Below the pieces are notes generated by a model that ran no database searches, was not told where the DNA came from, and was given only the letters and a program-made list of their open reading frames with translations. Of a stretch of DNA of 34,296 bases, positions 2,829-27,561 are shown in pieces. The stretch comes from a virus. Lineage: Duplodnaviria; Heunggongvirae; Uroviricota; Caudoviricetes. The position numbers and the translations under genes are program-made. The DNA lies in IMG/VR virus record IMGVR_UViG_2913128013_000001, positions 1 through 34,296 of that record. One strand, 5' to 3'. The stretch's first letter is position 1; each line of letters starts with the position of its first letter.

Positions 2829-3127
2829 TGTCCTGTTCTCGTTCAATTGTATTACTGAATAACGCCTTAAAAATCGCCGTTATGGAAAATGGCGATTTGT
2901 CTCTTATTCAACTTTGTCTTGATAAAGAAAAGCGCGACATAACTGAATCTGTTATCGCGATTTATCAGAGTGAATTAAATCTCCTGTCTGATGTGGTCAA
3001 TTTACTTGTTAAACGCGCTGTATTTCACAAGCAAATTTCCACCGTGGATGAACTGACAAAATTAACGACAGAAATCGCCAGTTATTGCGCTGATGTATCC
3101 AGGAAACTTAACGATAAAAGGAGCTGA
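2828..3127 (+). CDS. Hypothetical early protein, 99 aa (P2 orf81 position)
   Basis: ATG at 2828 preceded by GGGAGG; translationally coupled to the upstream ORF. Confidence 0.5.
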   Translation: MSCSRSIVLLNNALKIAVMENGDLSLIQLCLDKEKRDITESVIAIYQSELNLLSDVVNLLVKRAVFHKQISTVDELTKLTTEIASYCADVSRKLNDKRS

Positions 3128-3129
3128 TA

Positions 3130-3354
3130 ATGCCGGACAACGTAGATTTTATTCAGGAACAACAGGCTGAATTACTGGAGCGCCAGATTAACGCGGCAAG
3201 GGTAAAACATTGCGGTGCTTCTGCGCTGGTTTGCGAAGAGTGTGACGCGCCAATACCTGCTGCCCGTCGTGCGGCTTACCCGTCAGCCACGCGTTGTGTT
3301 TCCTGTCAGTCAGTCTTTGAAGCAAAAAACAAACATTACCGGAGAACGGCATGA
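3130..3354 (+). CDS. TraR/DksA-family C4 zinc-finger protein, 74 aa (P2 orf82 position)
   Basis: Four-cysteine motif CEECDAPIP...RCVSCQ in a 74-aa protein. RBS AAAAGGAG upstream of the ATG. Confidence 0.7.
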   Translation: MPDNVDFIQEQQAELLERQINAARVKHCGASALVCEECDAPIPAARRAAYPSATRCVSCQSVFEAKNKHYRRTA

Positions 3355-3626
3355 GTATTCGTATTGAAATTGGCGAACGTTATGTCGTTACCAGTGACAG
3401 CTTTCAGTTTATTCTCCACGAGAAAAAGAGAGCGGAAAGCGGTAAAAACGCCGGTCAGGAATGGCTGGCGGTGGTTGGTTATTACCCGAAATTAAGCCAG
3501 CTCGTTTCCGGCCTGATGCATCACGATATTCTGACCGGAAGCGCAAAGTCTTTTGCTGATTTAAACGCGCAGGTTGAGCAACTCAGCAAGCGTTGTTCAG
3601 AGGCTTTTGGCTCATATGGCCGTTAA
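3351..3626 (+). CDS. Hypothetical early protein, 91 aa (P2 orf83 position)
   Basis: ORF overlapping the preceding stop (ATGA) and the A start. Confidence 0.5.
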   Translation: MSIRIEIGERYVVTSDSFQFILHEKKRAESGKNAGQEWLAVVGYYPKLSQLVSGLMHHDILTGSAKSFADLNAQVEQLSKRCSEAFGSYGR

Positions 3627-5922
3627 AGCCTCCGGGCGTTTTGTCCCTCCGTCAGCATTTGCCGCAGGCACCGGTAAGACGTTTACCGGTGCTTATGCAT
3701 GGAACGCGCCACGCGAGGCTGTCGGGCGCGAAAGACCTCTTACACGTGACGAGATGCGTCAGGTGCAAGGTGTTTTATCCACGATTAACCGCCTGCCTTA
3801 TTTTTTGCGCTCGCTGTTTACTTCACGCTATGACTACATCCGGCGCAATAAAAGCCCGGTGCACGGGTTTTATTTCCTCACATCCACTTTTCAGCATCGT
3901 TTATGGCCGCGCATTGAGCGCGTGAATCAGCGCCATGAAATGAACACCGACGCGTCGTTGCTGTTTCTGGCAGAGCGTGACCACTATGCGCGTCTGCCGG
4001 GGATGAATGACAAGGAGCTGAAAAAGTTTGCCGCCCGTATTTCATCGCAGCTTTTCATGATGTATGAGGAACTCTGCGATGCCTGGGTGGATGCGCATGG
4101 CGAAAAAGAATCACTGTTTACGGATGAGGCGCAGGATCATCTGTATGGTCATGTTGCTGGCGCTGCACGTGCTTTCAATATTTCCCCGCTCTACTGGAAA
4201 AAATACCGTAAAGGACAGATAACCACGAGGCAGGCATATTCTGCCATTGCCCGTCTGTTTAACGATGAGTGGTGGACTCATCAGCTTAAAGGCCAGCGTA
4301 TGCGCTGGCATGAGGCGTTACTGATTGCTGTCGGGGAGGTCAATAAAGACCGTTCTCCTTATGCCAGTAAACATGCCATTCGTGATGTGCGTGCACGCCG
4401 CCAGGCAAATCTGGAGTTTCTTAAATCGTGTGACCTTGAAAATAAGGAAACCGGCGAGCGCATTGACCTTATCAGTAAGGTGATGGGCAGTATTTCTAAT
4501 CCTGAAATTCGCCGGATGGAGCTGATGAATACCATTGCCGGTATTGAGCGTTACGCCGCTGCAGAGGGTGATGTGGGGATGTTTATCACGCTGACCGCGC
4601 CGTCAAAGTATCACCCGACACGTCAGGTCGGAAAAGGCGAAAGTAAAACCGTCCAGCTAAATCACGGCTGGAACGATGAGGCATTTAATCCAAAGGATGC
4701 GCAGCGTTATCTCTGCCGTATCTGGAGCCTGATGCGCACGGCATTCAAGGATAATGATTTACAGGTCTACGGTTTGCGAGTCGTCGAGCCACACCACGAC
4801 GGAACGCCGCACTGGCATATGATGCTTTTTTGTAATCCACGCCAGCGTAACCAGATTATCGAAATCATGCGTCGCTATGCGCTCAAAGAGGATGGCGACG
4901 AAAGAGGAGCCGCGCGAAACCGTTTTCAGGCAAAACACCTTAACCGGGGCGGTGCTGCGGGGTATATCGCTAAATACATCTCAAAAAATATCGACGGCTA
5001 TGCACTGGATGGTCAGCTCGATAACGATACCGGCAGGCCGCTGAAAGACACTGCAGCGGCTGTTACCGCATGGGCGTCAACGTGGCGTATCCCGCAATTT
5101 AAAACGGTTGGTCTGCCGACAATGGGGGCTTACCGTGAACTACGCAAATTGCCTCGTGGCGTCAGCATTGCTGATGAGTTTGACGAACGCGTCGAGGCTG
5201 CACGCGCCGCCGCAGACAGTGGTGATTTTGCGTTGTATATCAGCGCGCAGGGTGGGGCAAATGTCCCGCGCGATTGTCAGACTGTCAGGGTTGCCCGTAG
5301 CCCGTCGGATGACGTTAACGAGTATGAGGAAGAAGTCGAGAGAGTGGTCGGCATTTACGCGCCGCATCTCGGCGCGCGTCATATTCATATCACCAGAACC
5401 ACGGACTGGCGCATTGTTCCGAAAGTTCCGGTCGTTGAGCCTTTGACTTTAAAAAGCGGCATCGCCGCGCCTCGGAGTCCTGTCAATAACTGTGGAAAGC
5501 TCACCGGTGGTGATACTTCATTACCGGCTCCCACGCCTTCTGAGCACGCCGCAGCAGTGCTTAATCTGGTTGATGACGGTGTTATCGAATGGAATGACCC
5601 GGAGGTCGTGAGGGCGCTCAGGGGCGCATTAAAACACGGGCTGAGAACACCAAATCGTCAGCAGAGAAACGGAAGCCCGTTAAAACAGTATGAAATGGCA
5701 CCATCGGCCAGACTGACCCGGTCGGAACGAGTGCAATTTACCCGTATCCGCGTTGACCTCGCTCAGAACGGTATCAGGCCGCAGCGATGGGAGCTTGAGG
5801 CGCTGGCGCGTGGAGCAACCGTAAATTATGACGGGAAAAAATTCACGTATCCGGTCGCTGATGAGTGGCTGGGATTCTCAACAGTAATGGAGTGGACATT
5901 ATGGCAAAAATTCACGAGGTAA
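3616..5922 (+). CDS. A: Replication initiation protein A (rolling-circle endonuclease), 768 aa
   Basis: Start chosen at MAVKASGRF (ATG 3616). Large protein with an HUH-type signature (EPHHDGTPHWHMMLF) and the AAGYIAKYISKN motif typical of rolling-circle initiators; size and position match P2 gpA. Confidence 0.85.
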   Translation: MAVKASGRFVPPSAFAAGTGKTFTGAYAWNAPREAVGRERPLTRDEMRQVQGVLSTINRLPYFLRSLFTSRYDYIRRNKSPVHGFYFLTSTFQHRLWPRIERVNQRHEMNTDASLLFLAERDHYARLPGMNDKELKKFAARISSQLFMMYEELCDAWVDAHGEKESLFTDEAQDHLYGHVAGAARAFNISPLYWKKYRKGQITTRQAYSAIARLFNDEWWTHQLKGQRMRWHEALLIAVGEVNKDRSPYASKHAIRDVRARRQANLEFLKSCDLENKETGERIDLISKVMGSISNPEIRRMELMNTIAGIERYAAAEGDVGMFITLTAPSKYHPTRQVGKGESKTVQLNHGWNDEAFNPKDAQRYLCRIWSLMRTAFKDNDLQVYGLRVVEPHHDGTPHWHMMLFCNPRQRNQIIEIMRRYALKEDGDERGAARNRFQAKHLNRGGAAGYIAKYISKNIDGYALDGQLDNDTGRPLKDTAAAVTAWASTWRIPQFKTVGLPTMGAYRELRKLPRGVSIADEFDERVEAARAAADSGDFALYISAQGGANVPRDCQTVRVARSPSDDVNEYEEEVERVVGIYAPHLGARHIHITRTTDWRIVPKVPVVEPLTLKSGIAAPRSPVNNCGKLTGGDTSLPAPTPSEHAAAVLNLVDDGVIEWNDPEVVRALRGALKHGLRTPNRQQRNGSPLKQYEMAPSARLTRSERVQFTRIRVDLAQNGIRPQRWELEALARGATVNYDGKKFTYPVADEWLGFSTVMEWTLWQKFTR

Positions 5923-6353
5923 AGCTGCACGCAAAATATTTCGACCTTGTGCTGGAAGGAAAGAAACGCGCAGAGTTTCGGAAAAATGACCGTAATTATG
6001 AGCGCGGGGACACGTTGATTTTGCATGAATGGGTGCAGGGTGTGTATACGGGGCGAAAGGTTGAAGCCCGGATAACAGATGTTACTGACCTGTCAGACTG
6101 GCTGGAAGATTATGTCTTGCTAAGTATTGAGCTGCTTAATACAGGTGCATATGAGATTGTGAACTGGAAAGAACTTAGTGAGCGTGGCCTGGTATTCAGA
6201 ATTAATCATGAAATTATGCATCAGCTCGGCCTTGCTGTTATGTATGAACCAGAGACGGGGATGTCTGGCGGGGCAATGGTTGCCACGGATGGAGCATGGA
6301 ACTATTCAGATGAACAGATTGAGCGTGCACAGCAAAACGGGTGGCTTGGATAA
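5901..6353 (+). CDS. ASCH/DUF3850-like (PUA-fold) protein, 150 aa
   Basis: ATG at 5901 with GGAG 8 nt upstream. N-terminus MAKIHEVKLHAKYFDLVLEGKKRAEFRKNDRNYERGDTLILHEW resembles the ASCH/DUF3850 family, from recollection. Confidence 0.55.
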   Translation: MAKIHEVKLHAKYFDLVLEGKKRAEFRKNDRNYERGDTLILHEWVQGVYTGRKVEARITDVTDLSDWLEDYVLLSIELLNTGAYEIVNWKELSERGLVFRINHEIMHQLGLAVMYEPETGMSGGAMVATDGAWNYSDEQIERAQQNGWLG

Positions 6354-6559
6354 TGCACAGAATACCAGGTGAGATACCGCACCATAAAACTAAAAATATC
6401 AAGCTGATGGCTATTGTTCAGCGTTTGCAGCAGATTATGGTCAACGAAAATCTGACGCCCGATGAGCTGGTCGGGTGTGCCGAAATAGTCCGGGATAATT
6501 ACGGGCGGCTTAACGATATCGGTCAGTCCAGAGTTATGCCACCACCACGCAGACGATAG
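6353..6559 (+). CDS. Small hypothetical protein, 68 aa
   Basis: ORF starting at an ATG overlapping the previous stop (TAATG). No recognisable motif. Confidence 0.3.
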   Translation: MHRIPGEIPHHKTKNIKLMAIVQRLQQIMVNENLTPDELVGCAEIVRDNYGRLNDIGQSRVMPPPRRR

Positions 6560-6788
6560 AGAACGCCGCCAGTCGTGAAACTTGTTTTCAGGGCTGGCGG
6601 GGTTGAACAACGAGCGAAGCGAGGCGTTAGTTGACAGTCATATTTTTACTGCGTTGGTGCTGGTTTTTGACGGTTGAAAGGAGTTAGCTCGGAGAGCTAA
6701 AGCTAACAACTTACAAATATTCAAAAGTAAGCTTCCTGTTGTTAACATAAGGTCGATTTTTTATGTGGATGATGCAAAAAGGATAGCT

Positions 6789-7520
6789 ATGGATACTGTA
6801 ATCGCTTTTCTATCACTCGCTTTTTTCGTTGCTTTTTTCATCGGGTTAATCAAACCATCACTGGTGCGGATGCCGAACCGTAAACGTGCAAGTGCGGTTT
6901 ATCTCGGAGGAGGTTTTGTATTGAGCATAATTGGTTCAATACTCTATCCAACAGAAAAAAGCCAGCCAGTTGCTAAAACTGATACATCAACCGTTGCAGA
7001 ACACCAAGTCCAAAAAACATTCGAATATGGTGGAAAAACACTCAAGGAATATCGGAACGAGCCAAAGAAAACTCGACACGATATTGTGAATAGTTACATT
7101 GATTTTAAGAAAGTGCCAGTCACCGCATCAGATGCATTTTATGCCTGCATGAGTGAATATACTTTTACCAAAGATGATGAGTTGAAACTCGGTGATGTTC
7201 TTGGGTGGTGCTTTAATGATTATGAAAATGACCCGAATTCACTAAACAATAAAATCAATCTTGATACATTTCAGAGTAATTTTAGTGGTTGGGATGGTTC
7301 TTATCGTCCATTGGAAAAACTAATTAAAGATAATATGAACGATGATTCATCTTATAAACATGTGTCAACGGTATATCATTTGGTTTTGAATAAAGACCCG
7401 CACGCCATTGTGAAAACCACATTTCGTGGCACTAATGCTTATGGAGGAGTAGTTAAACAGACTATTGCTGCGCGTGTCGACATCCGAACGGGCGAAGTCG
7501 TTTCAGTATTAGATAACTAA
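6789..7520 (+). CDS. Membrane-anchored hypothetical protein, 243 aa (cargo island A, gene 1)
   Basis: ATG at 6789 with AAGGA 6 nt upstream. Two predicted N-terminal transmembrane helices (VIAFLSLAFFVAFFIGLI and VYLGGGFVLSIIGSILYP) followed by a soluble domain of roughly 180 aa. Strongly AT-rich compared with flanking phage genes. Confidence 0.55.
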   Translation: MDTVIAFLSLAFFVAFFIGLIKPSLVRMPNRKRASAVYLGGGFVLSIIGSILYPTEKSQPVAKTDTSTVAEHQVQKTFEYGGKTLKEYRNEPKKTRHDIVNSYIDFKKVPVTASDAFYACMSEYTFTKDDELKLGDVLGWCFNDYENDPNSLNNKINLDTFQSNFSGWDGSYRPLEKLIKDNMNDDSSYKHVSTVYHLVLNKDPHAIVKTTFRGTNAYGGVVKQTIAARVDIRTGEVVSVLDN

Positions 7521-7523
7521 TCG

Positions 7524-7585
7524 TTGATGCCGTATTGACACTTGTTATACTAGTGGTGGAACGAGACTGCAATAGTCTGTTCCAC
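7524..7585 (+). promoter_or_regulatory. Sigma70-like promoter (TTGATG-16nt-TATACT) followed immediately by an imperfect 12-bp-arm inverted repeat (candidate operator or 5' stem-loop)
   Basis: TTGATG at 7524-7529 and TATACT at 7546-7551. Dyad GTGGAAC-g-AGACT (7556-7568) pairs with AGTCT-G-TTCCAC (7574-7585) with one bulge and a 5-nt loop. Confidence 0.35.
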
Positions 7586-7632
7586 TACAGGAGTAATTAC
7601 CTTGACTGTAAGTTGCTTTTATTGAGGGAACT

Positions 7633-8922
7633 ATGAAGTTTAAGACTGAATTGAGTCGAAAATTGCATGACTCGGTAGTGTTTGATTTGAAAAAAGACCT
7701 GGTAAAATTAGAGGGAAACCTAAAAAATACAGATTTGTTGTTGTCGTTTCAGTTCAAAATAATAAGGAATATAATTAGAAGTGAAAGGATGATCAAAGGA
7801 TTAAAGTCTTTCTTAGGGGAACTAAAGGCAACAAAAAGAAAAGGTGGTTTAAAAAAAGAACAATCTAAACTTATTAAGGAAAATATTAAGAGTGTTGAGC
7901 AGGTTATTGATGATGTGAAATTTAAAATATATATCTTCAAAATGTTTGGTGATAGTGTTGCTTTTTTGTATTTGGATAAGTTTGATATTAAGCATTTTTT
8001 TTATAATGTTGTGGATTACAGTCCCAAGGAGTCAGCGGGCTATATGGGAGGGAAGGATGGCTTAAAAGAAGAATGGGGATTGGTGAAGAAGGCCTGCAAG
8101 GCTGGTGTTCCTACGTTACTCAATGATATTACAATGAGTATGAGGCATGGTGATGTTTGTTTACTTGGTGAAGGTGCACCAGTACTGGTGGAGGTGAAAT
8201 CAAGTCAAAATAAAAATGATCGTGTTGAACGTCAAAAAAATAACCTTAATAGACTAGCTGAATTTTTAGCAGAAGATAAAGCTGAAGATTTTAGAGGGAT
8301 GCCATTAGTGTTAAGGAAAGAACTGTGTTTTTCAGAAGTTACATATAAAAAAGAATTTAATGAGCATCTGAATGTATGCAGGAAAAAAGGAATTTCATGG
8401 GTAAGGCTAGAAGATGGATTTTATGTGGTATCTAATCGTGGCTGTGATCTGGAAATAGCATTATCACAGTTGGATCTTAGAGGGAGGAAAATTGCACCTA
8501 TATTTTTGAATGAATATAAAAATAATCAATTGTGGGTTCCTTTAACTCCATTTGTTAATCTTATAAATGATGCGCGTGATTTGTGTGACTTTATAAATGG
8601 GGAGTTAACTATTCTCTGTGTTCTTGATTTGGATTGTTTTAAACAAATAGCTTTGAATGAAGGGTTTGAGCTTGTTTTTGTCGATGGTGAAGACTATTCG
8701 ATGATATTTAAAGAATTTGGTAGCTCATTGATTTGGGGTGTGTCATGGCAAATGATGCTTCGCACTCCTTTAGAAATGGTGTCAATGTCTTGGTTAATTA
8801 AAGATTCAATTGATAGATTTAAGCGTTTACAAAAGCAACATGCTGAGATGCAGCCTGCCACTGATGTTAATACATCCGAAACCTCCTTGTTTGAAAAATA
8901 TAGGCCTCTTTTTACAAAGTAG
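7633..8922 (+). CDS. Hypothetical protein with PD-(D/E)xK-like nuclease motif, 429 aa (cargo island A, gene 2)
   Basis: ATG at 7633 with GAGGGAA RBS. Very AT-rich and Lys-rich. Central motif E147...D165...D174(HGDVCLLG)...E187-V-K189(PVLVEVKSS) fits the restriction-endonuclease-like fold pattern. No Walker A motif seen. Confidence 0.6.
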   Translation: MKFKTELSRKLHDSVVFDLKKDLVKLEGNLKNTDLLLSFQFKIIRNIIRSERMIKGLKSFLGELKATKRKGGLKKEQSKLIKENIKSVEQVIDDVKFKIYIFKMFGDSVAFLYLDKFDIKHFFYNVVDYSPKESAGYMGGKDGLKEEWGLVKKACKAGVPTLLNDITMSMRHGDVCLLGEGAPVLVEVKSSQNKNDRVERQKNNLNRLAEFLAEDKAEDFRGMPLVLRKELCFSEVTYKKEFNEHLNVCRKKGISWVRLEDGFYVVSNRGCDLEIALSQLDLRGRKIAPIFLNEYKNNQLWVPLTPFVNLINDARDLCDFINGELTILCVLDLDCFKQIALNEGFELVFVDGEDYSMIFKEFGSSLIWGVSWQMMLRTPLEMVSMSWLIKDSIDRFKRLQKQHAEMQPATDVNTSETSLFEKYRPLFTK

Positions 8923-9011
8923 TCAGATGCTGTAGGTGTATATGCTATTGCATTAATTTGCATGCAAAACAAGTAGAGGTAAAACTCTTACAGGCTGCTT
9001 GGGGGATAGCT

Positions 9012-9039
9012 TTTGAATGCTAATGCATTTGCATTCAAA
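9012..9039. repeat. Perfect 9-bp inverted repeat with 10-nt spacer (TTTGAATGC-N10-GCATTCAAA) just left of cos
   Basis: Read directly from the sequence; the spacer contains the palindrome AATGCATT. A separate 12-bp perfect palindrome TTTGCATGCAAA lies at 8957-8968. Confidence 0.6.
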
Positions 9040-9058
9040 TTGCCCCACGAAGCGGGCG

Positions 9059-9077
9059 GGCGAGGCGGGGAAAGCAC
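9059..9077. other. cos: Candidate cos cohesive-end sequence (GGCGAGGCGGGGAAAGCAC)
   Basis: The 19-mer matches my recollection of the P2/186 cohesive end. It sits in the non-coding, GC-rich interval next to the portal gene, where cos lies in P2. Confidence 0.5.
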
Positions 9078-9219
9078 TGCGCGCTGGCGGTGGTGCTGAT
9101 TTTATTTTTTCAGCGTCTGAGCGCGTCGTGATGGCGTTTAGAGTGTGCGCCGGGGCGTTGGTGTGTCTGCGGGCTGTTTTGTGCGGTGGTGAGCGTGTGA
9201 GGGCGTGATGGCGGGGTGT

Positions 9220-9241
9220 AAAAAAGCCGCCCGCAGGCGGC
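9220..9241 (-). terminator. Rho-independent terminator downstream of portal gene Q
   Basis: On the minus strand: GCCGCC-tgcg-GGCGGC hairpin followed by TTTTTT, 5 nt after the Q stop codon. Confidence 0.6.
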
Positions 9242-9246
9242 GATGT

Positions 9247-10281
9247 TCAGCCGTTGTCAGTGTCCAGTGAGTAGTTTTTAAAGCGGATGACCTCCTGACC
9301 GAGCCAGCCGTTTATTTCCCGAATCCTGTCCTGTAACGGGATAAGCTCATTGCGGACAAAGACCTTTGCCACTTTCTCAATATCACCCAGCGACCCGACG
9401 TTCTCCGGCTTGCCGCCCATCAACTGAAAGGGGATGCGGTGCGCGTCCAGCAGGTCAGCGGCGCTGGATTTTTTGATATTAAAAAAATCGTCCTTTGTCG
9501 CCACTTCACTGAGCGGGATAATTTTGATGCCGTCTGGCTTTCCCTGTGGTGCATAGAGAAACAGATTATTAAAGTTATTGCGTCCTTTCGACTTGGCCAT
9601 GTTTTCGCGAAGTGAGTCAATGTAATCGCGATCCTGCAATGCGTCGGTGATATACATGATATATCCGGCATGTGCACCGTTTTCGTAATACTTGCGGCGG
9701 AACAGCGTGGCCGACTCATTCAGCCAGGCAGAGTTAAGGGCGCTCAGATATTCCGGCAGGCCGTACAGCTCCTGATTAATATCCGGCTCCAGCAGGTGAA
9801 ACACGGAGCCGGGCGTGAAAGGTGTCGGCTCGTTGAAGGATGGCACCCACCAGTAAACATCCTCCTCCACGCCACGGCGGGTATATTTTGCCGGTGAGGT
9901 TTCCAGTCTGATGACCTTACCGGTGGTGCTGTAACGCTTTTCCAGAAACGCATTACCGAACACCAGAAAATCCAGCACAAAGCGGCTGAAATCCTGCTGG
10001 GAAAGCCACGGATGCGGGATAAACGTTGAAGCCAGAATATTACGTTTGACGTAAATCGGTGAGCTGTGATGCACGGCAGCACGCAGGCTTTTTGCCAGAC
10101 CGGTAAAGCTGACCGGTGGCTCATACCATCTGCCGTTACTGATGCACTCGACATAATCCAGAATGTCACGGCGGTCGAGTACCGGCACCGGCTCGCCAAA
10201 GGTGAATGCCTCCATTTTCGGGGCGCTGGCGGTCATTGTTTTTGCCGCAGGTTGCGGTGTTTTCCCTTTTTTCTTGCTCAT
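9247..10281 (-). CDS. Q: Portal protein, 344 aa
   Basis: 344 aa, the same size as P2 gpQ; adjacent to cos and translationally coupled to the terminase gene. Confidence 0.9.
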   Translation of the reverse strand: MSKKKGKTPQPAAKTMTASAPKMEAFTFGEPVPVLDRRDILDYVECISNGRWYEPPVSFTGLAKSLRAAVHHSSPIYVKRNILASTFIPHPWLSQQDFSRFVLDFLVFGNAFLEKRYSTTGKVIRLETSPAKYTRRGVEEDVYWWVPSFNEPTPFTPGSVFHLLEPDINQELYGLPEYLSALNSAWLNESATLFRRKYYENGAHAGYIMYITDALQDRDYIDSLRENMAKSKGRNNFNNLFLYAPQGKPDGIKIIPLSEVATKDDFFNIKKSSAADLLDAHRIPFQLMGGKPENVGSLGDIEKVAKVFVRNELIPLQDRIREINGWLGQEVIRFKNYSLDTDNG

Positions 10282-12053
10282 CAGTAAAACTCCAGAATGG
10301 TGGATGTCAGCGGGGTGTTGATACCGGCGGTGAGTGGCTCATTTAACAGGGCGTGCATGGTCGCCCAGGCGAGGTCGGCGTGGCTGGCTTCCTCGCTGCG
10401 ACTGGCCTCATAGGTGGCGCTGCGTCCGCTGCTGGTCATGGTCTTACGGATAGCCATAAACGAGCTGGTGATGTCGGTGGCGCTGACGTCATATTCCAGA
10501 CAGCCACGTCGGATAACGTCTTTTGCCTTGAGCACCATTGCGGTTTTCATTTCCGGCGTGTAGCGGATGTCGCGCGCGGCGGGATAGAACGAGCGCACGA
10601 GCTGGAACACGCCGACACCGAGGCCGGTGGCATCAATACCGATGTATTCGACGTTGTATTTTTCGGTGAGTTTGCGGATGGATTCCGCCTGAGTGGCAAA
10701 GTCCATGCCTTTCCACTGGTGACGCTCAAGTATTCTGAATTTGCCACCGGCCACCACCGGCGGTGCCAGTACCACGCATCCGGCACTGTCGCCACGGTGT
10801 GACGGGTCGTAACCAATCCATACCGGGCGGGAGCCGAACGGATTTGCGGCAAACGGCGCATAGTCTTCCCATTCTTCCAGCGTGTCGACCATGCAGCGTT
10901 GCAGCTCCTCGAACGGGAACACCGACGCCTTGTCGTCAACAAATTCACACATGAACAGGTTTTTAAAATCGTCGGCGCTGTTTTCGCGTTTGAGCTGCTC
11001 AATGTCGAACAGCGTGCAGCCGCCTTTCAGCGCGTCCTCAATGGTGACAATCTGCCGCCACTGGCCGTCCGCACAGAGAAGCCCACCGGCAAGGGCGTTA
11101 TGACTGACGTCGATTTCCACGCGTTCAGCGGCGCTGGCGCGTCCCCGGTTAAACAGTTCACCGGACCAGAACGGGTAGGCGTCGTGCGCCAGCGTGGACG
11201 GGGTGGAGAAATAGGTCGAGCGCAGGTGACTCTGTGAGGCCATACCTGATGCCACCTTACGCAGTACCTGAAAATTCGGGATCCAGAAAATCTCGTCGAC
11301 GTACAGGTCGCCGTTATGGCTTTGTGCGGTGTTGGAGTTGGTGCCGAGAAAAATCAGTTTTGCGCCGTTATTGCCCAGGACAATCGGGTCACCGGTCAGG
11401 TCAACGTCAACCAGCCGGGCAAAGGCGATGATGTATTCGCGGAACACATACGCCTGCGTTTTACTGGCCGACAGAAAAATCTGGTTATGACCGGTTTTCA
11501 GGGCGCGCAGCAGCGCCTCGCGGGAAAAATAAAATGTCGCGCCAATCTGGCGGGATTTCAGGATATCGCGGATGCGGTGCTCAAGCCCGGCGCGATACCA
11601 GTGCAACTGATAGTCGAAAGACTGCTCAAAGAAAATCTGCTCCAGCTTTTCGATGGCCTCGTCACTGAAAAAATTCTTTTTCGGTTTGCGCCGTCCGCCT
11701 TTGTTGCGGTTAGCGACGTTCGGATTAAGGTCTGCCTCGTTGCCGGTCTGACTGTAACGGTTTACCCGTGCCAGTCGTTCAATCTGGCGTCCCAGCAGGT
11801 CAATTTCCTTGAAGTCACCGCCGGTTTTCTGCGGTTTGATGATGAGCTGGGTCAGCCGCGCTTCCAGGCTCATTTCGACACGGCTGATGGGGGCAACGTT
11901 GTCCCAGCCGTCGCGCTGTTTCCAGCTCTGCACTGTCGGGCGTTTCATCTGCAACATGGCGGCAATCTGCGGCACGGAAAATCCCTGCCAGTACAGCAGC
12001 GCCGCCTGACGACGCGGGTCGTGTAAAAGAGTGGTGTCTGTGGTGATGGTCAT
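10281..12053 (-). CDS. P: Terminase large (ATPase) subunit, 590 aa
   Basis: Start chosen at MTITTDTTLLHDPRRQ (ATG 12051-12053), giving 590 aa as in P2 gpP. Sits upstream of Q on the same strand. Confidence 0.9.
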   Translation of the reverse strand: MTITTDTTLLHDPRRQAALLYWQGFSVPQIAAMLQMKRPTVQSWKQRDGWDNVAPISRVEMSLEARLTQLIIKPQKTGGDFKEIDLLGRQIERLARVNRYSQTGNEADLNPNVANRNKGGRRKPKKNFFSDEAIEKLEQIFFEQSFDYQLHWYRAGLEHRIRDILKSRQIGATFYFSREALLRALKTGHNQIFLSASKTQAYVFREYIIAFARLVDVDLTGDPIVLGNNGAKLIFLGTNSNTAQSHNGDLYVDEIFWIPNFQVLRKVASGMASQSHLRSTYFSTPSTLAHDAYPFWSGELFNRGRASAAERVEIDVSHNALAGGLLCADGQWRQIVTIEDALKGGCTLFDIEQLKRENSADDFKNLFMCEFVDDKASVFPFEELQRCMVDTLEEWEDYAPFAANPFGSRPVWIGYDPSHRGDSAGCVVLAPPVVAGGKFRILERHQWKGMDFATQAESIRKLTEKYNVEYIGIDATGLGVGVFQLVRSFYPAARDIRYTPEMKTAMVLKAKDVIRRGCLEYDVSATDITSSFMAIRKTMTSSGRSATYEASRSEEASHADLAWATMHALLNEPLTAGINTPLTSTILEFY

Positions 12054-12226
12054 GAATACCTCGCCGTGATGAATACACGGCAAGGCTACTGAGTCGCGCC
12101 CCGCGATTCGCTAAGGTGCTGTTGTGTCAGTGATAAGCCATCCGGGACTGATGGCGGAGGATGCGCATCGTCGGGAAACTGATGCCGACATGTGACTCCT
12201 CTAATCACTATTCAGGACTCCTGACA
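12054..12226. promoter_or_regulatory. Divergent late promoter region (leftward P-Q and rightward O-N-M-L operons)
   Basis: 173-bp interval between divergent P and O starts. Contains the dyad CCGTG-N7-CACGG at 12064-12080. By analogy to P2, Ogr-activated promoters are expected but not resolved. Confidence 0.4.
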
Positions 12227-13081
12227 ATGGCAAAAAAAGTCTCAAAATTCTTTCGTATCGGCGTTGAGGGTGACACCTGTGACGGGCGTGTCATCAGTGC
12301 GCAGGATATTCAGGAAATGGCGGAAACCTTTGACCCGCGTGTCTATGGTTGCCGCATTAACCTGGAACATCTGCGCGGCATCCTGCCTGACGGTATTTTT
12401 AAACGTTATGGCGATGTGGCCGAACTGAAGGCCGAAAAGATTGATGACGATTCGGCGCTGAAAGGCAAATGGGCGCTGTTTGCGAAAATCACCCCGACCG
12501 ATGACCTTATCGCGATGAACAAGGCCGCGCAGAAGGTCTACACCTCAATGGAAATTCAGCCGAACTTTGCCAACACCGGCAAATGTTATCTGGTGGGGCT
12601 GGCCGTCACCGATGACCCGGCAAGCCTCGGCACGGAATACCTGGAATTCTGCCGCACGGCAAAACACAACCCCCTGAACCGCTTCAAATTAAGCCCTGAA
12701 AATCTGATTTCAGTGGCAACGCCCGTTGAGCTGGAATTTGAAGACCTGCCTGAAACCGTGTTCACCGCCCTGACCGAAAAGGTGAAATCCATTTTTGGCC
12801 GCAAACAGGCCAGCGATGACGCCCGTCTGAATGACGTGCATGAAGCGGTGACCGCTGTTGCTGAACATGTGCAGGAAAAACTGAGCGCCACTGAGCAGCG
12901 CCTCGCTGAGATGGAAACCGCCTTTTCTGCACTTAAGCAGGAGGTGACTGACAGGGCGGATGAAACCAGCCAGGCATTCACCCGCCTGAAAAACAGTCTC
13001 GACCACACCGAAAGTCTGACCCAGCAGCGCCGCAGCAAGGCCACCGGTGGTGGCGGTGACGCCCTGATGACGAACTGCTGA
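12227..13081 (+). CDS. O: Capsid scaffolding protein, 284 aa
   Basis: Start at MAKKVSKFF (ATG 12227), giving 284 aa as in P2 gpO. Lies immediately upstream of the major capsid gene. Confidence 0.85.
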   Translation: MAKKVSKFFRIGVEGDTCDGRVISAQDIQEMAETFDPRVYGCRINLEHLRGILPDGIFKRYGDVAELKAEKIDDDSALKGKWALFAKITPTDDLIAMNKAAQKVYTSMEIQPNFANTGKCYLVGLAVTDDPASLGTEYLEFCRTAKHNPLNRFKLSPENLISVATPVELEFEDLPETVFTALTEKVKSIFGRKQASDDARLNDVHEAVTAVAEHVQEKLSATEQRLAEMETAFSALKQEVTDRADETSQAFTRLKNSLDHTESLTQQRRSKATGGGGDALMTNC

Positions 13082-13139
13082 CCGGCGTCAGTCAGTCCGG
13101 GAAAACCTTCACGATTAACCCTTAATTTCAGGAAAAACT

Positions 13140-14213
13140 ATGCGCCAGGAAACCCGCTTTAAATTTAATGCCTACCTGTCCCGTGTTGCCGAACTGAACG
13201 GCATCGACGCCGGTGATGTGTCGAAAAAATTCACCGTTGAACCGTCGGTCACCCAGACCCTGATGAACACCATGCAGGAGTCCTCTGACTTTCTGACCCG
13301 CATCAACATTGTGCCGGTCAGCGAAATGAAAGGGGAAAAAATTGGTATCGGTGTCACCGGCTCCATCGCCAGCACCACCGACACCGCCGGTGGTACCGAA
13401 CGTCAGCCGAAGGACTTCTCGAAGCTGGCGTCAAACAAGTACGAATGCGACCAGATTAACTTCGATTTTTATATCCGCTACAAAACGCTGGACCTGTGGG
13501 CGCGTTATCAGGATTTCCAGCTCCGTATCCGTAACGCCATTATCAAACGCCAGTCCCTTGATTTGATCATGGCCGGTTTTAACGGCGTGAAGCGTGCCGA
13601 AACCTCTGACCGCAGCAGCAATCCGATGCTGCAGGATGTGGCGGTCGGCTGGCTGCAGAAATACCGCAATGAAGCCCCGGCGCGCGTGATGAGCAAGGTC
13701 ACTGACGAGGAAGGTCGCACCACCTCTGAGGTCATCCGCGTGGGTAAGGGCGGTGATTATGCCAGCCTCGACGCACTGGTGATGGATGCGACCAACAACC
13801 TGATTGAGCAGTGGTATCAGGAAGACCCTGACCTTGTGGTGATTGTGGGGCGTCAGCTACTGGCGGACAAGTATTTCCCCATCGTTAACAAGGAGCAGGA
13901 CAACAGCGAAATGCTGGCCGCTGACGTCATCATCAGCCAGAAACGCATCGGTAACCTGCCAGCGGTACGCGTCCCGTACTTCCCGGCGGATGCGATGCTC
14001 ATCACGAAGCTGGAAAACCTGTCCATCTACTACATGGATGACAGCCATCGCCGCGTGATTGAGGAAAACCCGAAACTCGACCGCGTGGAGAACTACGAGT
14101 CAATGAACATTGATTACGTGGTGGAAGACTACGCCGCCGGTTGTCTGGTGGAAAAAATTAAGGTCGGTGATTTCTCCACACCGGCTAAGGCGACCGCAGA
14201 GCCGGGAGCGTAA
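13140..14213 (+). CDS. N: Major capsid protein, 357 aa
   Basis: 357 aa, the size of P2 gpN, in the expected O-N-M order. Confidence 0.9.
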   Translation: MRQETRFKFNAYLSRVAELNGIDAGDVSKKFTVEPSVTQTLMNTMQESSDFLTRINIVPVSEMKGEKIGIGVTGSIASTTDTAGGTERQPKDFSKLASNKYECDQINFDFYIRYKTLDLWARYQDFQLRIRNAIIKRQSLDLIMAGFNGVKRAETSDRSSNPMLQDVAVGWLQKYRNEAPARVMSKVTDEEGRTTSEVIRVGKGGDYASLDALVMDATNNLIEQWYQEDPDLVVIVGRQLLADKYFPIVNKEQDNSEMLAADVIISQKRIGNLPAVRVPYFPADAMLITKLENLSIYYMDDSHRRVIEENPKLDRVENYESMNIDYVVEDYAAGCLVEKIKVGDFSTPAKATAEPGA

Positions 14214-24435: not shown

Positions 24436-24939
24436 GTGACAGAATTTCTTGAAAAAATGTTTGATCGTGTTTATTCGGAAAAAGACTTCAGCATTAATAT
24501 CGCCATATTTGTCTCCGGAATCGCAGGAGTTACCTGTTATCTTATTCTCCACGATTATGTACTGACGCTGTTTTCTTTTATTATTGTTTTTCCGGTTGTA
24601 AAGATTATTGCGGGAGGATTATACCTGCGAATTATTACCCTCAAGGGAGAGGCAGTTGCAGAAAAACGACTGGCAATGCTTTATAATTCTTTGACTGGAA
24701 GAGAAAAAGAAGTAGTAATGCACTTTGTGACGCATGGTGGTTCTGTTATGACATGGGGACAAATGAATAGGCTTGATGATCCTGAACCGGGTGTAGAATC
24801 TCTGGCCCGTCGTGGATTACTGAATACGTCCGTAACGATGGATGGTATGCGAGAAACGTTTGAACTAGATCTGACCCTCTTTAATTATGCATACAACTAT
24901 CACCCCCATCAGGAGAAGATGCTTACTTCAGAAGAATAA
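24436..24939 (+). CDS. Small membrane protein, 167 aa (cargo island B)
   Basis: GTG start at 24436 with AAGGA RBS (ATG alternative at 24460). Two predicted transmembrane helices in the first 60 aa, then a soluble C-terminal part. AT-rich. Confidence 0.45.
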   Translation: MTEFLEKMFDRVYSEKDFSINIAIFVSGIAGVTCYLILHDYVLTLFSFIIVFPVVKIIAGGLYLRIITLKGEAVAEKRLAMLYNSLTGREKEVVMHFVTHGGSVMTWGQMNRLDDPEPGVESLARRGLLNTSVTMDGMRETFELDLTLFNYAYNYHPHQEKMLTSEE

Positions 24940-25243
24940 GAAATTTGTAATCTTTATGATGAAAATCTTAAACAGTATGGCGCCTCCCATCCTGTTTATT
25001 CAAAGGATGTAAGGTTTACACATTCCTGAAAACTTCAGACTCAACCATGATGTATGAGCTGTAGTATGAAGTCTCTTTCCATCCAGTTAAGTAAATGTCT
25101 GCTCCTCGCTTAAAGCGGACTTTTAGCTTAGTTAGCTAGTCAGCTCAGTGCTAAAAGCTGTATAGTCTGTATTGATGAACTAAGGAGCAGATCAGGAGTA
25201 TTTTGGAGAGCGTTTTAGTTACTGTGAAATATAATAGATTGAA

Positions 25244-25272
25244 ACCATGAGGCTCTATTAGAACCTCATGGT
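25244..25272 (-). terminator. Candidate terminator hairpin downstream of the 675-aa gene
   Basis: 9-bp stem ACCATGAGG / CCTCATGGT with an 11-nt loop, 13 nt past the stop codon. The downstream tract on the minus strand is only moderately U-rich. Confidence 0.35.
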
Positions 25273-25284
25273 AAACTTAAATAC

Positions 25285-27312: not shown

Positions 27313-27561
27313 AAAGAAACCTTACAGTGGTGGTAATATTTGACATGATGTCCATTGAGGTAGCATGCAGTTTATCCAATATCCTGAATACTCGCAAATT
27401 TAAAACAATATTAATGGAGAGTATAAATATCCTGCTTAACCGGACCATTCACTTTGAGAGATCTTCCGGCAAACCAATGTCCGCAGTTCGCTCAAAGTAG
27501 ACTGTCAGATTTGACAGAGCTTTGGTTACTTAATTTGTCAGTTGGAAACTGAGAGAGTACA

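What the first reader, a model, noticed from the sequence alone, without database searches (positions are those of the whole stretch)
6560..9058. AT-rich two-gene cargo island at the tin/old variable position (between the replication module and cos)
The backbone samples at roughly 50% GC (31 of 60 in one stretch of gene N), whereas this island is far lower (17 of 60 in a stretch at 7741-7800). It sits where P2 carries its anti-phage genes tin and old, a known variable site for defence cargo in P2-like phages. Neither protein resembles what I recall of Tin or Old (no ATPase motif, no TOPRIM). Gene 1 has two N-terminal transmembrane helices; gene 2 has a PD-(D/E)xK-like arrangement (E147, D165, D174, E187-x-K189). 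A membrane protein paired with a nuclease-fold protein at a defence hotspot is a plausible uncharacterised anti-phage system, possibly abortive-infection type.
Basis: partly seen in the sequence, partly recalled or inferred. Interest (0 to 1): 0.8.

Follow-up and report, generated by a model that had tools for sequence, protein, structure and literature searches.

The report
Two separate cargo genes, one nuclease
The AT-rich island in this P2-like prophage is real, but it holds two independent cargo genes rather than a two-gene system: a membrane-anchored, probably periplasmic protein, and a stand-alone nuclease from a large unnamed family that also sits in P4-satellite defence hotspots and is a good untested anti-phage candidate.

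Summary
Window 6560-9058 has 36.9% GC against 52-57% for the backbone. It lies between replication gene A and cos (exact 19-mer at 9059-9077) and replaces P2's tin/old segment. It carries two + strand genes: gene 1 (6789-7520, 243 aa, two TM helices) and gene 2 (7633-8922, 429 aa).

The "membrane protein plus nuclease" pairing is not supported. Gene 1 occurs in 261 E. coli genomes but with gene 2 in only 17. Elsewhere it is followed by unrelated cargo, including the PDC-S31 and PDC-S15 single-gene defence candidates. Gene 2 relatives occur alone in a Citrobacter P2-like hotspot, in the psu-int hotspot of P4 satellites, in decayed remnants, and in MGE or defence-type islands of Vibrio and Ramlibacter. 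Gene 1's soluble domain looks periplasmic (HdeA-like, two invariant Cys).

Rousset et al. 2022 catalogued both genes as separate unannotated entries; I found no record of a test.

Gene 2 matches no Pfam, PADLOC or PDB family, yet has at least 1,381 50%-identity clusters. Best reading: a stand-alone defence nuclease beside an unrelated membrane protein.

The parts
5865..6353 (+). DUF3850/ASCH + DUF7415 accessory gene (162 aa), the leftmost gene of the variable region. Homology to P2 ends inside it at 6121.
   Evidence: Pfam DUF3850 7.9e-18, DUF7415 2.3e-14, ASCH 9.3e-11. P2 alignment ends at 6121. Rousset lists the locus as 'DUF3850/ASCH + hypothetical + hypothetical'.
6341..6559 (+). 72-aa ORF of unknown function (phrog_11386).
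   Evidence: Annotated as a hypothetical protein in RefSeq relatives.
6558..6633 (+). Conserved ~75-bp boundary element with a stable hairpin (6562-6604). It recurs at cassette junctions in other P2-like phages.
   Evidence: Matches many P2-like phages at 93-99% identity. Lies directly upstream of the gene 2 homologue in Citrobacter (L012 7818-7893) and occurs a second time after gene 1 in phage S164 (L002 4477-4541). Fold -35.2 kcal/mol, z -4.1.
6789..7520 (+). Gene 1: 243-aa membrane protein. TM1 is about residues 2-21. A K/R-rich loop spans 22-33. TM2 is about 31-54. A disordered linker spans 54-74. A conserved α+β domain spans 80-243 and is predicted periplasmic. It is an independent cassette, not part of gene 2's function.
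7524..7551 (+). Sigma-70-like promoter candidate for gene 2 (TTGATG, 16 nt, TATACT with an upstream TG).
   Evidence: This is a consensus match only, and the number of such sites in the region is not above the shuffle expectation. The upstream region is not conserved in the Citrobacter homologue.
7553..7588 (+). 16-bp hairpin or palindrome between the promoter-like site and the gene 2 ribosome-binding site. Its 3' arm is also 90% complementary to 7449-7468, inside the 3' end of gene 1.
   Evidence: Fold -31.6 kcal/mol, z -3.95. Inverted repeat I2. Sequence.
7633..8922 (+). Gene 2: 429-aa cytoplasmic protein. It has an N-terminal three-helix bundle (residues 2-113), a PD-(D/E)xK-type core (residues ~142-220) and a C-terminal α/β domain (223-406). 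It is a stand-alone candidate defence nuclease.
   Evidence: phrog_14906 full length. AF2 pLDDT 88, pTM 0.89. The family has 1,381 50%-identity clusters at E<=1e-3, all about 400 aa. No Pfam, PADLOC, NCBIfam or PDB sequence match. Rousset Table S5B entry 138, 16 occurrences.
8056..8292 (+). Nuclease core of gene 2 (residues 142-220). Order of elements: helix with E147, strand 161-163 followed by D165, strand 175-177 preceded by D174, strand 184-186 leading into E187-V-K189, helix with R197/Q201, then strand 216-220.
9059..9077 (+). P2 cos cohesive-end 19-mer, near the right edge of the hotspot (homology to P2 resumes at 9030).
   Evidence: Exact match, 0 expected by chance. Aligns to cosR of NC_001895.

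Best explanation
The island is the cargo of the P2 A-to-cos hotspot. It holds two functionally independent cassettes that happen to be neighbours in this phage lineage.

**Gene 2 (7633-8922)** encodes a soluble protein of an unnamed but widespread family. Its centre is a minimal Hjc/Mrr-like PD-(D/E)xK endonuclease core. The inferred metal-binding and catalytic residues are E147, D174, E187 and K189, with Q201 on the following helix. This core lies between an N-terminal three-helix bundle and a C-terminal α/β domain that has no solved structural relative.

I infer that gene 2 is a single-gene anti-phage or anti-MGE nuclease expressed from the prophage. The helical bundle would mediate oligomerisation or autoinhibition. 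The C-terminal domain would recognise the trigger or substrate, which could be foreign or modified DNA or a phage protein. The core would cleave DNA in a Mg2+-dependent way.

**Gene 1 (6789-7520)** is a separate, much more common hotspot gene. It encodes an inner-membrane protein with a two-TM hairpin that displays a conserved, probably disulfide-bonded, HdeA-like-plus-β-sheet domain in the periplasm. It most likely acts at the envelope, in superinfection exclusion or another lysogenic-conversion role, and not as an effector for gene 2.

**What is shown and what is inferred**
- Shown: the composition, the position, the gene structures, the conservation of the motif, the predicted folds, and the lack of co-occurrence.
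- Inferred: nuclease activity, the defence role, the roles of the flanking domains, the topology of gene 1 and the function of gene 1.
For: **Independence of the two genes**
- E. coli counts are 261 genomes with gene 1 against 17 with both.
- Of 26 related loci fetched, only the one from the same lineage has both genes. Fifteen have gene 2 only and nine have gene 1 only.
- A 70%-identical gene 2 homologue is the sole gene between gpA and portal in a Citrobacter P2-like prophage.
- Homologues at 49-50% identity lie between psu and int of P4-like satellites in E. coli and in a Logan assembly whose cluster members are mostly Serratia.
- Homologues remain intact inside decayed P4 and P2 remnants.
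- Rousset et al. list the two genes as separate entries.

**Nuclease assignment**
- The E/D/ExK/Q residues are invariant in 116-162 representatives that are only about 25-35% identical to the query.
- The residues fall on the canonical αβββαβ order in a model with pLDDT 88 and pTM 0.89.

**Defence context**
- The gene occupies the P2 tin/old and P4 psu-int hotspots described in PMC9122126 and in the 2026 preprint 10.64898/2026.02.27.708500.
- More distant relatives sit beside an integrase or large serine recombinase, HTH-ImmA/IrrE, PemK, SIR2 and ArdA genes.
- The slot after gene 1 holds PADLOC single-gene candidates in other phages.
- The 2026 preprint found that 6 of 8 randomly chosen unannotated P4 hotspot loci protected against phages.

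**Gene 1 topology**
- The loop at 22-33 has 5 K/R and no D/E.
- The only two Cys (C120, C141) are invariant.
Against: - No experiment bears on either gene.
- No profile method linked the family to any Pfam PD-(D/E)xK family, even with family consensus sequences. A domain-only profile found nothing in the PDB.
- The AFDB library was unavailable, and I could not inspect the active-site geometry of the model.
- Hotspot location is guilt by association. P2 hotspots also carry partition systems and toxins.
- In P4 satellites the homologue is accompanied by a second gene (457 aa or 72 aa), so some family members may need a partner.
- Gene 1 was followed by a variable gene in every context I saw, which leaves room for a functional link.
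Confidence: 0.55

Rival explanations
1. First reader's model. Gene 1 (membrane protein) and gene 2 (nuclease fold) form one two-gene anti-phage system, possibly abortive infection, with the membrane protein acting as effector or sensor.
For: The genes are adjacent, on the same strand and both AT-rich. They are found together in 17 E. coli genomes, and the gene 2 cluster also includes Salmonella and Cronobacter members. TM-protein-plus-enzyme pairs are common in P2/P4 hotspots. A sequence in gene 1's 3' end (7449-7468) is complementary to the hairpin upstream of gene 2.
Against: Co-occurrence fails in both directions. The genes are separated by 112 bp containing a promoter-like site. Their GC differs (0.385 against 0.339). 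Gene 1's conserved domain is predicted periplasmic. Rousset et al. treat them as separate entries.
Confidence: 0.1
2. Modular model. Gene 1 is a constant periplasm-facing sensor or anchor that works with whichever swappable cytoplasmic effector is encoded immediately downstream (the nuclease here, DUF2971/PDC-S31 or FRG/PDC-S15 elsewhere).
For: In all eight distinct gene 1 contexts examined, it is followed by a different gene just before cos. Several of those are defence candidates.
Against: The downstream genes, including gene 2, PDC-S31 and PDC-S15, belong to families defined as single-gene candidates or found without gene 1. The simpler reading is that gene 1 lies next to the recombination slot. 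A conserved boundary element flanks gene 1 on both sides in phage S164, as expected for a separate cassette.
Confidence: 0.08
3. Gene 2 is a nuclease but not a defence gene. It could be a Hjc-like junction resolvase or recombination accessory for the phage, or a selfish toxin or addiction module that persists because it is hard to lose.
For: The best structural match is a Holliday-junction resolvase. In P4 satellites it is paired with a small 72-aa or a 457-aa protein that could be an antitoxin or immunity partner. It persists in decayed elements.
Against: Its distribution among otherwise near-identical P2-like phages is patchy. It is AT-rich and occupies the two hotspots that are enriched for defence cargo. 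It is absent from all 50,697 deposited phage genomes by tblastn, so it is not a core phage function. It occurs as a lone gene in this phage and in Citrobacter with no candidate antitoxin.
Confidence: 0.15
4. Mechanistic variant. Gene 2 is a Type IV (modification-dependent) restriction endonuclease. The C-terminal domain reads modified bases and the Mrr/Hjc-like core cuts.
For: It is a single polypeptide with a minimal Mrr/Hjc-like core plus an unassigned α/β domain carrying invariant R228, E260 and R377. It replaces tin, which targets T-even phages. No cognate methyltransferase is present in the island.
Against: There is no match to Mrr_cat, SRA, or any other Pfam or PADLOC family. The long N-terminal helical bundle is not typical of known Type IV enzymes (from my own knowledge). 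Nothing links the C-terminal domain to DNA binding.
Confidence: 0.15

Closest known systems
Unannotated entries in Rousset et al. 2022 (PMC9122126): P2 hotspot entry 138, P4 hotspot entries 32 and 37, and P2 hotspot entry 12 for gene 1
   Same: Entry 138 is essentially the same 429-aa protein as gene 2. Entries 32 and 37 are family members in the P4 psu-int hotspot. Entry 12 is the gene 1 protein, flagged '2 TM'.
   Different: These are only catalogue rows with no domain, name or comment. The family motifs are absent from the table of systems that paper tested. The family sequences are absent from the constructs of the 2026 follow-up preprint.
Hjc / Mrr-like minimal PD-(D/E)xK endonucleases (e.g. 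S. solfataricus Hjc, PDB 1hh1)
Shedu (SduA, DUF4263), a single-gene defence nuclease with a PD-(D/E)xK core and regulatory N-terminal domains (description from my own knowledge)
   Same: The proposed logic is the same: one polypeptide, a PD-(D/E)xK core, and extra domains presumed to control activity. This is what gene 2 most likely works like.
   Different: No DUF4263 or PADLOC SduA hit was found. The domain order also differs, with the core in the middle and a large C-terminal domain.
P2 Old and Tin (canonical cargo of this site)
   Same: They occupy the same genomic slot between the replication module and cos. They are lysogenic-conversion genes that exclude other phages.
   Different: There is no sequence similarity (best blastp E = 3). 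Gene 2 shows no ATPase or TOPRIM match. The genes here are on the opposite strand to old and tin.
Bandua and Aernus (new P4 hotspot systems with NERD or DUF4365 PD-(D/E)xK nucleases, preprint 10.64898/2026.02.27.708500)
   Same: They are hotspot-encoded PD-(D/E)xK nucleases that were unannotated until tested. They show that such loci often protect.
   Different: They belong to different nuclease families (NERD PF08378; DUF4365 plus AbiGii) and come with kinase or MtlR partners. Gene 2 matches none of these.
HdeA/HdeB periplasmic acid-stress chaperones (for gene 1)
   Different: Identity is only 6-16% and there is no Pfam HdeA hit. Gene 1 is membrane-anchored and has an extra four-stranded β-sheet domain. 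A chaperone function is untested.

Membership tests
PD-(D/E)xK nuclease superfamily (gene 2) | Conserved catalytic pattern: an acidic residue on the first helix, D at the start of the second strand, (D/E)xK on the third strand | tested here: met
   E147, D174, E187 and K189 (plus Q201) are invariant in 24, 116, 133 and 162-sequence alignments.
PD-(D/E)xK nuclease superfamily (gene 2) | Core αβββαβ topology carrying those residues | tested here: met
   The AF2 model (pLDDT 88, pTM 0.89) gives H142-156, E161-163, E175-177, E184-186, H196-214, E216-220. This is a prediction, not a solved structure.
PD-(D/E)xK nuclease superfamily (gene 2) | Significant structural similarity to a solved member | tested here: inconclusive
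PD-(D/E)xK nuclease superfamily (gene 2) | Profile match to a Pfam clan member (Hjc, Mrr_cat, NERD, PDDEXK_n, Cas4, DUF4263 and others) | tested here: not met
   The query, 116 relatives and three consensus sequences gave no hit above threshold. Only scattered weak hits appeared (PDDEXK_9 best 0.0022, Hjc 0.072).
PD-(D/E)xK nuclease superfamily (gene 2) | Mg2+-dependent phosphodiester cleavage | not testable with these tools
   Needs purified protein and D174A, E187A and K189A controls.
Shedu / SduA | DUF4263 nuclease domain | tested here: not met
   No Pfam or PADLOC hit for the query or for 116 relatives.
P2 Old (OLD-family ATPase + TOPRIM) and Tin | Sequence homology to P2 Old or Tin | tested here: not met
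   blastp of both proteins against NP_046798 and NP_046797 gives a best E of 3.0.
Known or candidate defence systems in PADLOC-DB v2.0.0 | HMM match to any component model | tested here: not met
   Zero families for gene 1 and gene 2 at E <= 1. No consistent family among 116 gene 2 relatives.
   261 against 17 E. coli genomes. Fifteen loci have gene 2 only and nine have gene 1 only, against one with both.
Anti-phage defence gene (functional class, gene 2) | Location in validated defence hotspots or islands of mobile elements | tested here: met
   P2 A-cos hotspot (this window). P4 psu-int hotspot. Neighbours include ImmA/IrrE, PemK, SIR2 and ArdA.
Anti-phage defence gene (functional class, gene 2) | Protection against phage infection when expressed | not testable with these tools
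   No record of a test. The family is absent from the Rousset 2022 tested list and from the 2026 preprint constructs. Accession searches of the paper library found nothing.
HdeA/HdeB-like periplasmic fold (gene 1) | Structural similarity and periplasmic location | tested here: inconclusive

The most novel reading that the evidence does not exclude
Gene 2 founds a new, widespread family of single-protein immune nucleases, with at least 1,381 clusters at 50% identity from Enterobacterales to Vibrio and Betaproteobacteria. Its central Hjc-like PD-(D/E)xK core would be controlled by an N-terminal helical bundle and a C-terminal sensor domain of a fold with no solved relative. The family is carried in the defence hotspots of both P2 phages and their P4 satellites, and it stays intact after those elements decay.

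A less likely but more novel reading is that gene 1 is a constant periplasmic sensor that partners with interchangeable downstream effectors.
Probability: 0.45. Interest if true: 0.65.

Novelty: new variant of a known kind. Interest (0 to 1): 0.5.

Why it matters
P2 and P4 hotspots are an established source of new immune systems. Roughly a fifth to a quarter of these elements still carry only unannotated cargo.

This analysis takes one such locus and makes three advances:
- It splits the locus into two separable cassettes.
- It gives gene 2 a concrete, testable active site: D174, E187 and K189, invariant across a family of over a thousand clusters.
- It shows that the same family recurs in the hotspots of both the helper phage and its satellite, and survives in decayed remnants. 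That pattern is what one expects for a host-beneficial gene.

If gene 2 protects on its own, it would add a widespread defence family that is missing from the PADLOC v2.0.0 models and from Pfam, and would supply a new sensor-domain fold to study. If it does not, the locus becomes a useful counter-example to guilt by location.

Gene 1 ranks twelfth in Rousset's Table S5B of P2-hotspot entries (210 occurrences) and has no known function. Its predicted periplasmic topology points to envelope-level exclusion assays.

Tried and rejected
**Searches that found nothing for gene 1 or gene 2**
- Pfam, NCBIfam and PADLOC scans of both proteins.
- Pfam and PADLOC scans of 116 gene 2 relatives, which gave only coiled-coil noise and isolated weak nuclease hits.
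- Pfam scan of family consensus sequences for the nuclease core, the C-terminal domain and both together: zero hits even at E <= 10.
- PDB sequence searches with single proteins, the full-family profile and a nuclease-core-only profile. They returned only syntaxin and keratin coiled-coil noise or chance hits.
- hhalign of the core profile against E. coli YraN, a Hjc-like PD-(D/E)xK protein. It gave no alignment, because a single-sequence template is too weak.
- Foldseek against the PDB for gene 2.
- The AFDB50 library was not available.
- Rfam on the whole window: no RNA family.

**Checks against published systems**
- I compared gene 2 with the systems named in the 2026 preprint (Crouga, Bandua, Aernus, Toga, Reve, Hailong). 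Their domain descriptions differ, and no k-mer of four family alleles occurs in the synthesised constructs on either strand.
- Library searches for protein accessions and PHROG ids gave no papers.
- The iLund4u hotspot preprint does not mention these genes.

**Readings considered and rejected**
- Gene 2 as a core phage recombination function. I rejected this because tblastn finds it in none of 50,697 phage records and its distribution is patchy.
- Gene 1 as a pore-forming abortive-infection effector. I consider this unlikely because its conserved part is a folded, Cys-paired, HdeA-like domain predicted to lie outside the cytoplasm.


Full report
**1. The observation**

The window is a P2-like (Peduovirus) prophage of E. 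coli.
- Composition drops from 52-63% GC in the replication and structural genes to 31-38% across 7001-9000.
The mean for 2.5-kb windows is 50.6% (sd 7.1%). Only one other part of the window falls below 40%.
- The quoted 17 of 60 G+C at 7741-7800 is exact.
- The island lies between replication gene A (3574-5922) and the P2 cohesive-end 19-mer, which is exact at 9059-9077. Portal gene Q follows at 9247-10281 on the minus strand.
- Aligned to canonical P2 (NC_001895), the window is 97% identical over 3001-6121 and matches again at cos (9030-9077). So 6122-9029 replaces the segment where P2 has the end of orf91, tin and old.
It also contains a DUF3850/ASCH-DUF7415 gene (5865-6353) and a 72-aa ORF (6341-6559).
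- Neither island protein resembles Tin or Old (best blastp E = 3).

**2. The two genes**

Gene 1 is best started at ATG 6789 (243 aa), which has an AAGGA ribosome-binding site. RefSeq and PHROG agree.
- It has two hydrophobic helices: hydropathy segments 1-28 and 34-54, and AF2 helices 2-21 and 31-52.
- The loop between them (residues 22-33) carries five K/R and no acidic residue.
- A disordered linker spans residues 54-74.
- A well-predicted α+β domain spans residues 80-243 (pLDDT above 90 for most of it).

Gene 2 (7633-8922, 429 aa) has no hydrophobic segment. It is separated from gene 1 by 112 bp. That spacer contains a σ70-like site with an extended -10 (7524-7551), a very stable 16-bp hairpin (7553-7588, z -3.95) and a GAGG ribosome-binding site.

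**3. Gene 2 is a nuclease-fold protein of a large unnamed family**

Family size and database status:
- A word-indexed search found only 24 clusters.
- An exhaustive HMM search found 1,381 clusters at 50% identity with E <= 1e-3 and 465 with E <= 1e-30.
- Nearly all of the 150 listed are about 400 aa and match end to end.
- None carries a Pfam domain. The query, 116 relatives and the family consensus sequences hit nothing in Pfam, NCBIfam or PADLOC beyond scattered sub-threshold matches. A few of those are to PD-(D/E)xK models: PDDEXK_9, Hjc, Cas4 and CARF_PDDEXK.

Conservation. In alignments of 116-162 representatives that are only about 25-35% identical to the query:
- D107, G143, E147, D174, E187, K189 and Q201 are invariant in all three, and R377 in the 116- and 133-sequence sets.
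- D165, R197, R228 and E260 are conserved at 96% or more.

Structure. The AlphaFold model built on the family alignment is confident (pLDDT 88, pTM 0.89). It shows three parts:
- Three long N-terminal helices (residues 2-113).
- A core with helix 142-156 (E147), strand 161-163, strand 175-177 (preceded by D174), strand 184-186 (leading into E187-V-K189), helix 196-214 (R197, Q201) and strand 216-220.
- A C-terminal α/β domain (residues 223-406).

I conclude that the nuclease-fold assignment is well supported by motif and topology and only weakly supported by structural matching. The C-terminal domain has no solved relative.

**4. The two genes are not a system**

Gene 1 without gene 2:
- The island DNA matches 261 of 5,426 complete E. 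coli genomes, but only 17 carry gene 1 plus gene 2. The rest match gene 1 only.
- In other P2/186-like phages and prophages, gene 1 is followed by different genes:
  - a 215-aa protein (phage S164);
  - a 232-aa protein (P24A7b);
  - an 89-aa protein (P22H4);
  - a 198-aa protein plus an FRG-domain protein (E. coli STEC2017-197);
  - a 322-aa protein (Serratia);
  - a 310-aa protein (Erwinia);
  - a DUF2971 protein (Klebsiella).
- The Serratia and Klebsiella genes match PADLOC single-gene candidate PDC-S31. The FRG protein matches PDC-S15.

Gene 2 without gene 1:
- A 70%-identical homologue is the only gene between gpA and portal in a Citrobacter P2-like prophage.
- Homologues at 49-50% identity sit between psu and int of intact P4-like satellites in E. 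coli (at tRNA-Sec) and in a Logan assembly whose cluster members are mostly Serratia. A convergent 457-aa unknown gene lies beside them.
- In Pluralibacter gergoviae the homologue is intact between an 83-aa Psu fragment and a 129-145-aa integrase fragment.
- A 68% homologue survives beside capsid and terminase fragments of a decayed P2-like element.
- Vibrio homologues abut a large serine recombinase at the edge of a small integrated element.
- More distant homologues sit beside HTH-ImmA/IrrE and PemK (Ramlibacter), ArdA and ImmA, or SIR2 and an integrase (metagenome contigs).

A tblastn census of the 26 related loci found both genes only in the locus from the window's own lineage. Fifteen loci have gene 2 alone and nine have gene 1 alone.

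A conserved ~75-bp hairpin-containing element (6558-6633) marks the left edge of the cargo in many P2-like phages. It lies directly upstream of the Citrobacter gene 2 homologue, and it is duplicated on the far side of gene 1 in phage S164. This is what separate cassettes swapping at a shared junction would produce.

**5. What gene 1 looks like**

A periplasm-facing, membrane-tethered domain fits a superinfection-exclusion or other envelope-level lysogenic-conversion protein. It is on the other side of the membrane from a cytoplasmic nuclease. This functional assignment is an inference, and I hold it at roughly one in three.

**6. Prior knowledge**

Rousset et al. 2022 (PMC9122126) defined the P2 A-Q and P4 psu-int hotspots. 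Their supplementary tables already contain these proteins:
- Gene 1 is P2 entry 12 ('2 TM', 210 occurrences).
- A near-identical gene 2 is P2 entry 138 (16 occurrences).
- Family members are P4 entry 32 (48 occurrences, with the 457-aa protein) and P4 entry 37 (43 occurrences, with a 72-aa protein).

All four entries lack a domain, name or comment, and gene 1 and gene 2 are listed as separate entries. The family motifs are absent from that paper's table of tested systems.

The 2026 preprint by Moura de Sousa et al. (10.64898/2026.02.27.708500) reports that 6 of 8 randomly chosen unannotated P4 loci protected against phages, and it names new systems. None of those matches gene 2 by description or by sequence. 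That preprint also states that P2 and P4 almost never exchange defence genes. This family occurs in both, but at about 50% identity, so any exchange was ancient. Accession and PHROG-id searches of the paper library found nothing.

**7. Mechanism, with confidence**

I commit to the following. Gene 2 is a stand-alone Mg2+-dependent PD-(D/E)xK endonuclease that serves as a single-gene anti-phage or anti-MGE module. The helical bundle acts in oligomerisation or autoinhibition, and the C-terminal domain acts as sensor or substrate reader. Gene 1 is an unrelated envelope protein.

| Claim | Rough confidence |
|---|---|
| The two genes are independent | 0.8 |
| Gene 2 has a nuclease fold | 0.75 |
| Gene 2 has a defence role | 0.55 |
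| Gene 1 acts in exclusion | 0.3 |
| Composite statement | 0.55 |

Rivals are:
- a constant-sensor, swappable-effector model built on gene 1 (0.08);
- a non-defence nuclease or addiction module (0.15);
- as a mechanistic variant, a Type IV modification-dependent restriction enzyme (0.15).

**8. Verdict**

The active-site call was good. The hotspot context is right. The two-gene interpretation is not supported.

The finding is a new variant of a known kind. It is an uncharacterised nuclease family with a new domain architecture, located in a well-known defence hotspot, already catalogued but never studied. It is a sound experimental candidate rather than a surprise, so I score interest at 0.5.

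Noticed in passing
window 24900-27450 (ORF 25285-27312, minus strand): This is a second AT-rich island (32-35% GC) just after the tail-fibre assembly gene, at what I take to be the P2 Z/fun hotspot position. It encodes a 675-aa protein with a C-terminal NERD nuclease-related domain (E 8.7e-5, just above Pfam's cut-off) and has no PADLOC match. It is another untested defence candidate.
   Followed up: partly
window 6558-6633; L012 7818-7893; L002 4477-4541: A ~75-bp element with a stable hairpin (z -4.1) is conserved at the left edge of the hotspot in many P2-like phages. It lies directly upstream of the gene 2 homologue in Citrobacter and is duplicated after gene 1 in phage S164. It may be a junction sequence at which cassettes are swapped.
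   Followed up: partly
window 7449-7468 and 7553-7588: A 16-bp hairpin or palindrome lies between the promoter-like site and the gene 2 ribosome-binding site (z -3.95). Its 3' arm is also 90% complementary to a 20-mer inside the 3' end of gene 1. It could be an operator, an RNA stability element, or alternative pairing on read-through transcripts.
   Followed up: partly
window 5865-6353: The DUF3850/ASCH gene here is 162 aa and carries an extra DUF7415 C-terminal part, whereas P2 orf91 is 109 aa. Homology to P2 ends inside this gene at 6121, so the recombination breakpoint is intragenic.
   Followed up: partly
L013 9397-10770 (-); L017 8113-9486 (-): In P4-like satellites the gene 2 homologue is always accompanied by a convergent 457-aa protein (WP_001406847) with no Pfam or PADLOC match. 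This is Rousset P4 entry 32. A shorter family member pairs with a 72-aa protein (entry 37). Whether these are partners is unknown.
   Followed up: partly
L008-L011 (Pluralibacter gergoviae) 7315-10365; L024 6001-8271: The gene 2 homologue stays intact while the surrounding P4 satellite or P2 prophage has decayed to short Psu, integrase, capsid and terminase fragments. The same remnant recurs across many Pluralibacter assemblies, which suggests the gene is kept for the host's benefit.
   Followed up: partly
L007 and L015 (Vibrio cholerae, V. parahaemolyticus) 6217-13400: Vibrio homologues sit immediately next to a large serine recombinase, at the edge of a small integrated element near dksA that is otherwise full of small unknown ORFs. 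It could be a satellite-like element.
   Followed up: no
window 9012-9039: A 14+14-nt near-perfect palindrome (TTTGAATGCTAATG / CATTTGCATTCAAA) lies directly upstream of the cos region.
   Followed up: no
L001 1742-5342; hit H34 (strain LR-45): In the closest relatives, IS3-family elements have inserted into gpA (strain 19KM1831) and into the island itself (strain LR-45, where the match is split in two pieces). Some of these prophages are therefore already defective while still keeping gene 2.
   Followed up: no
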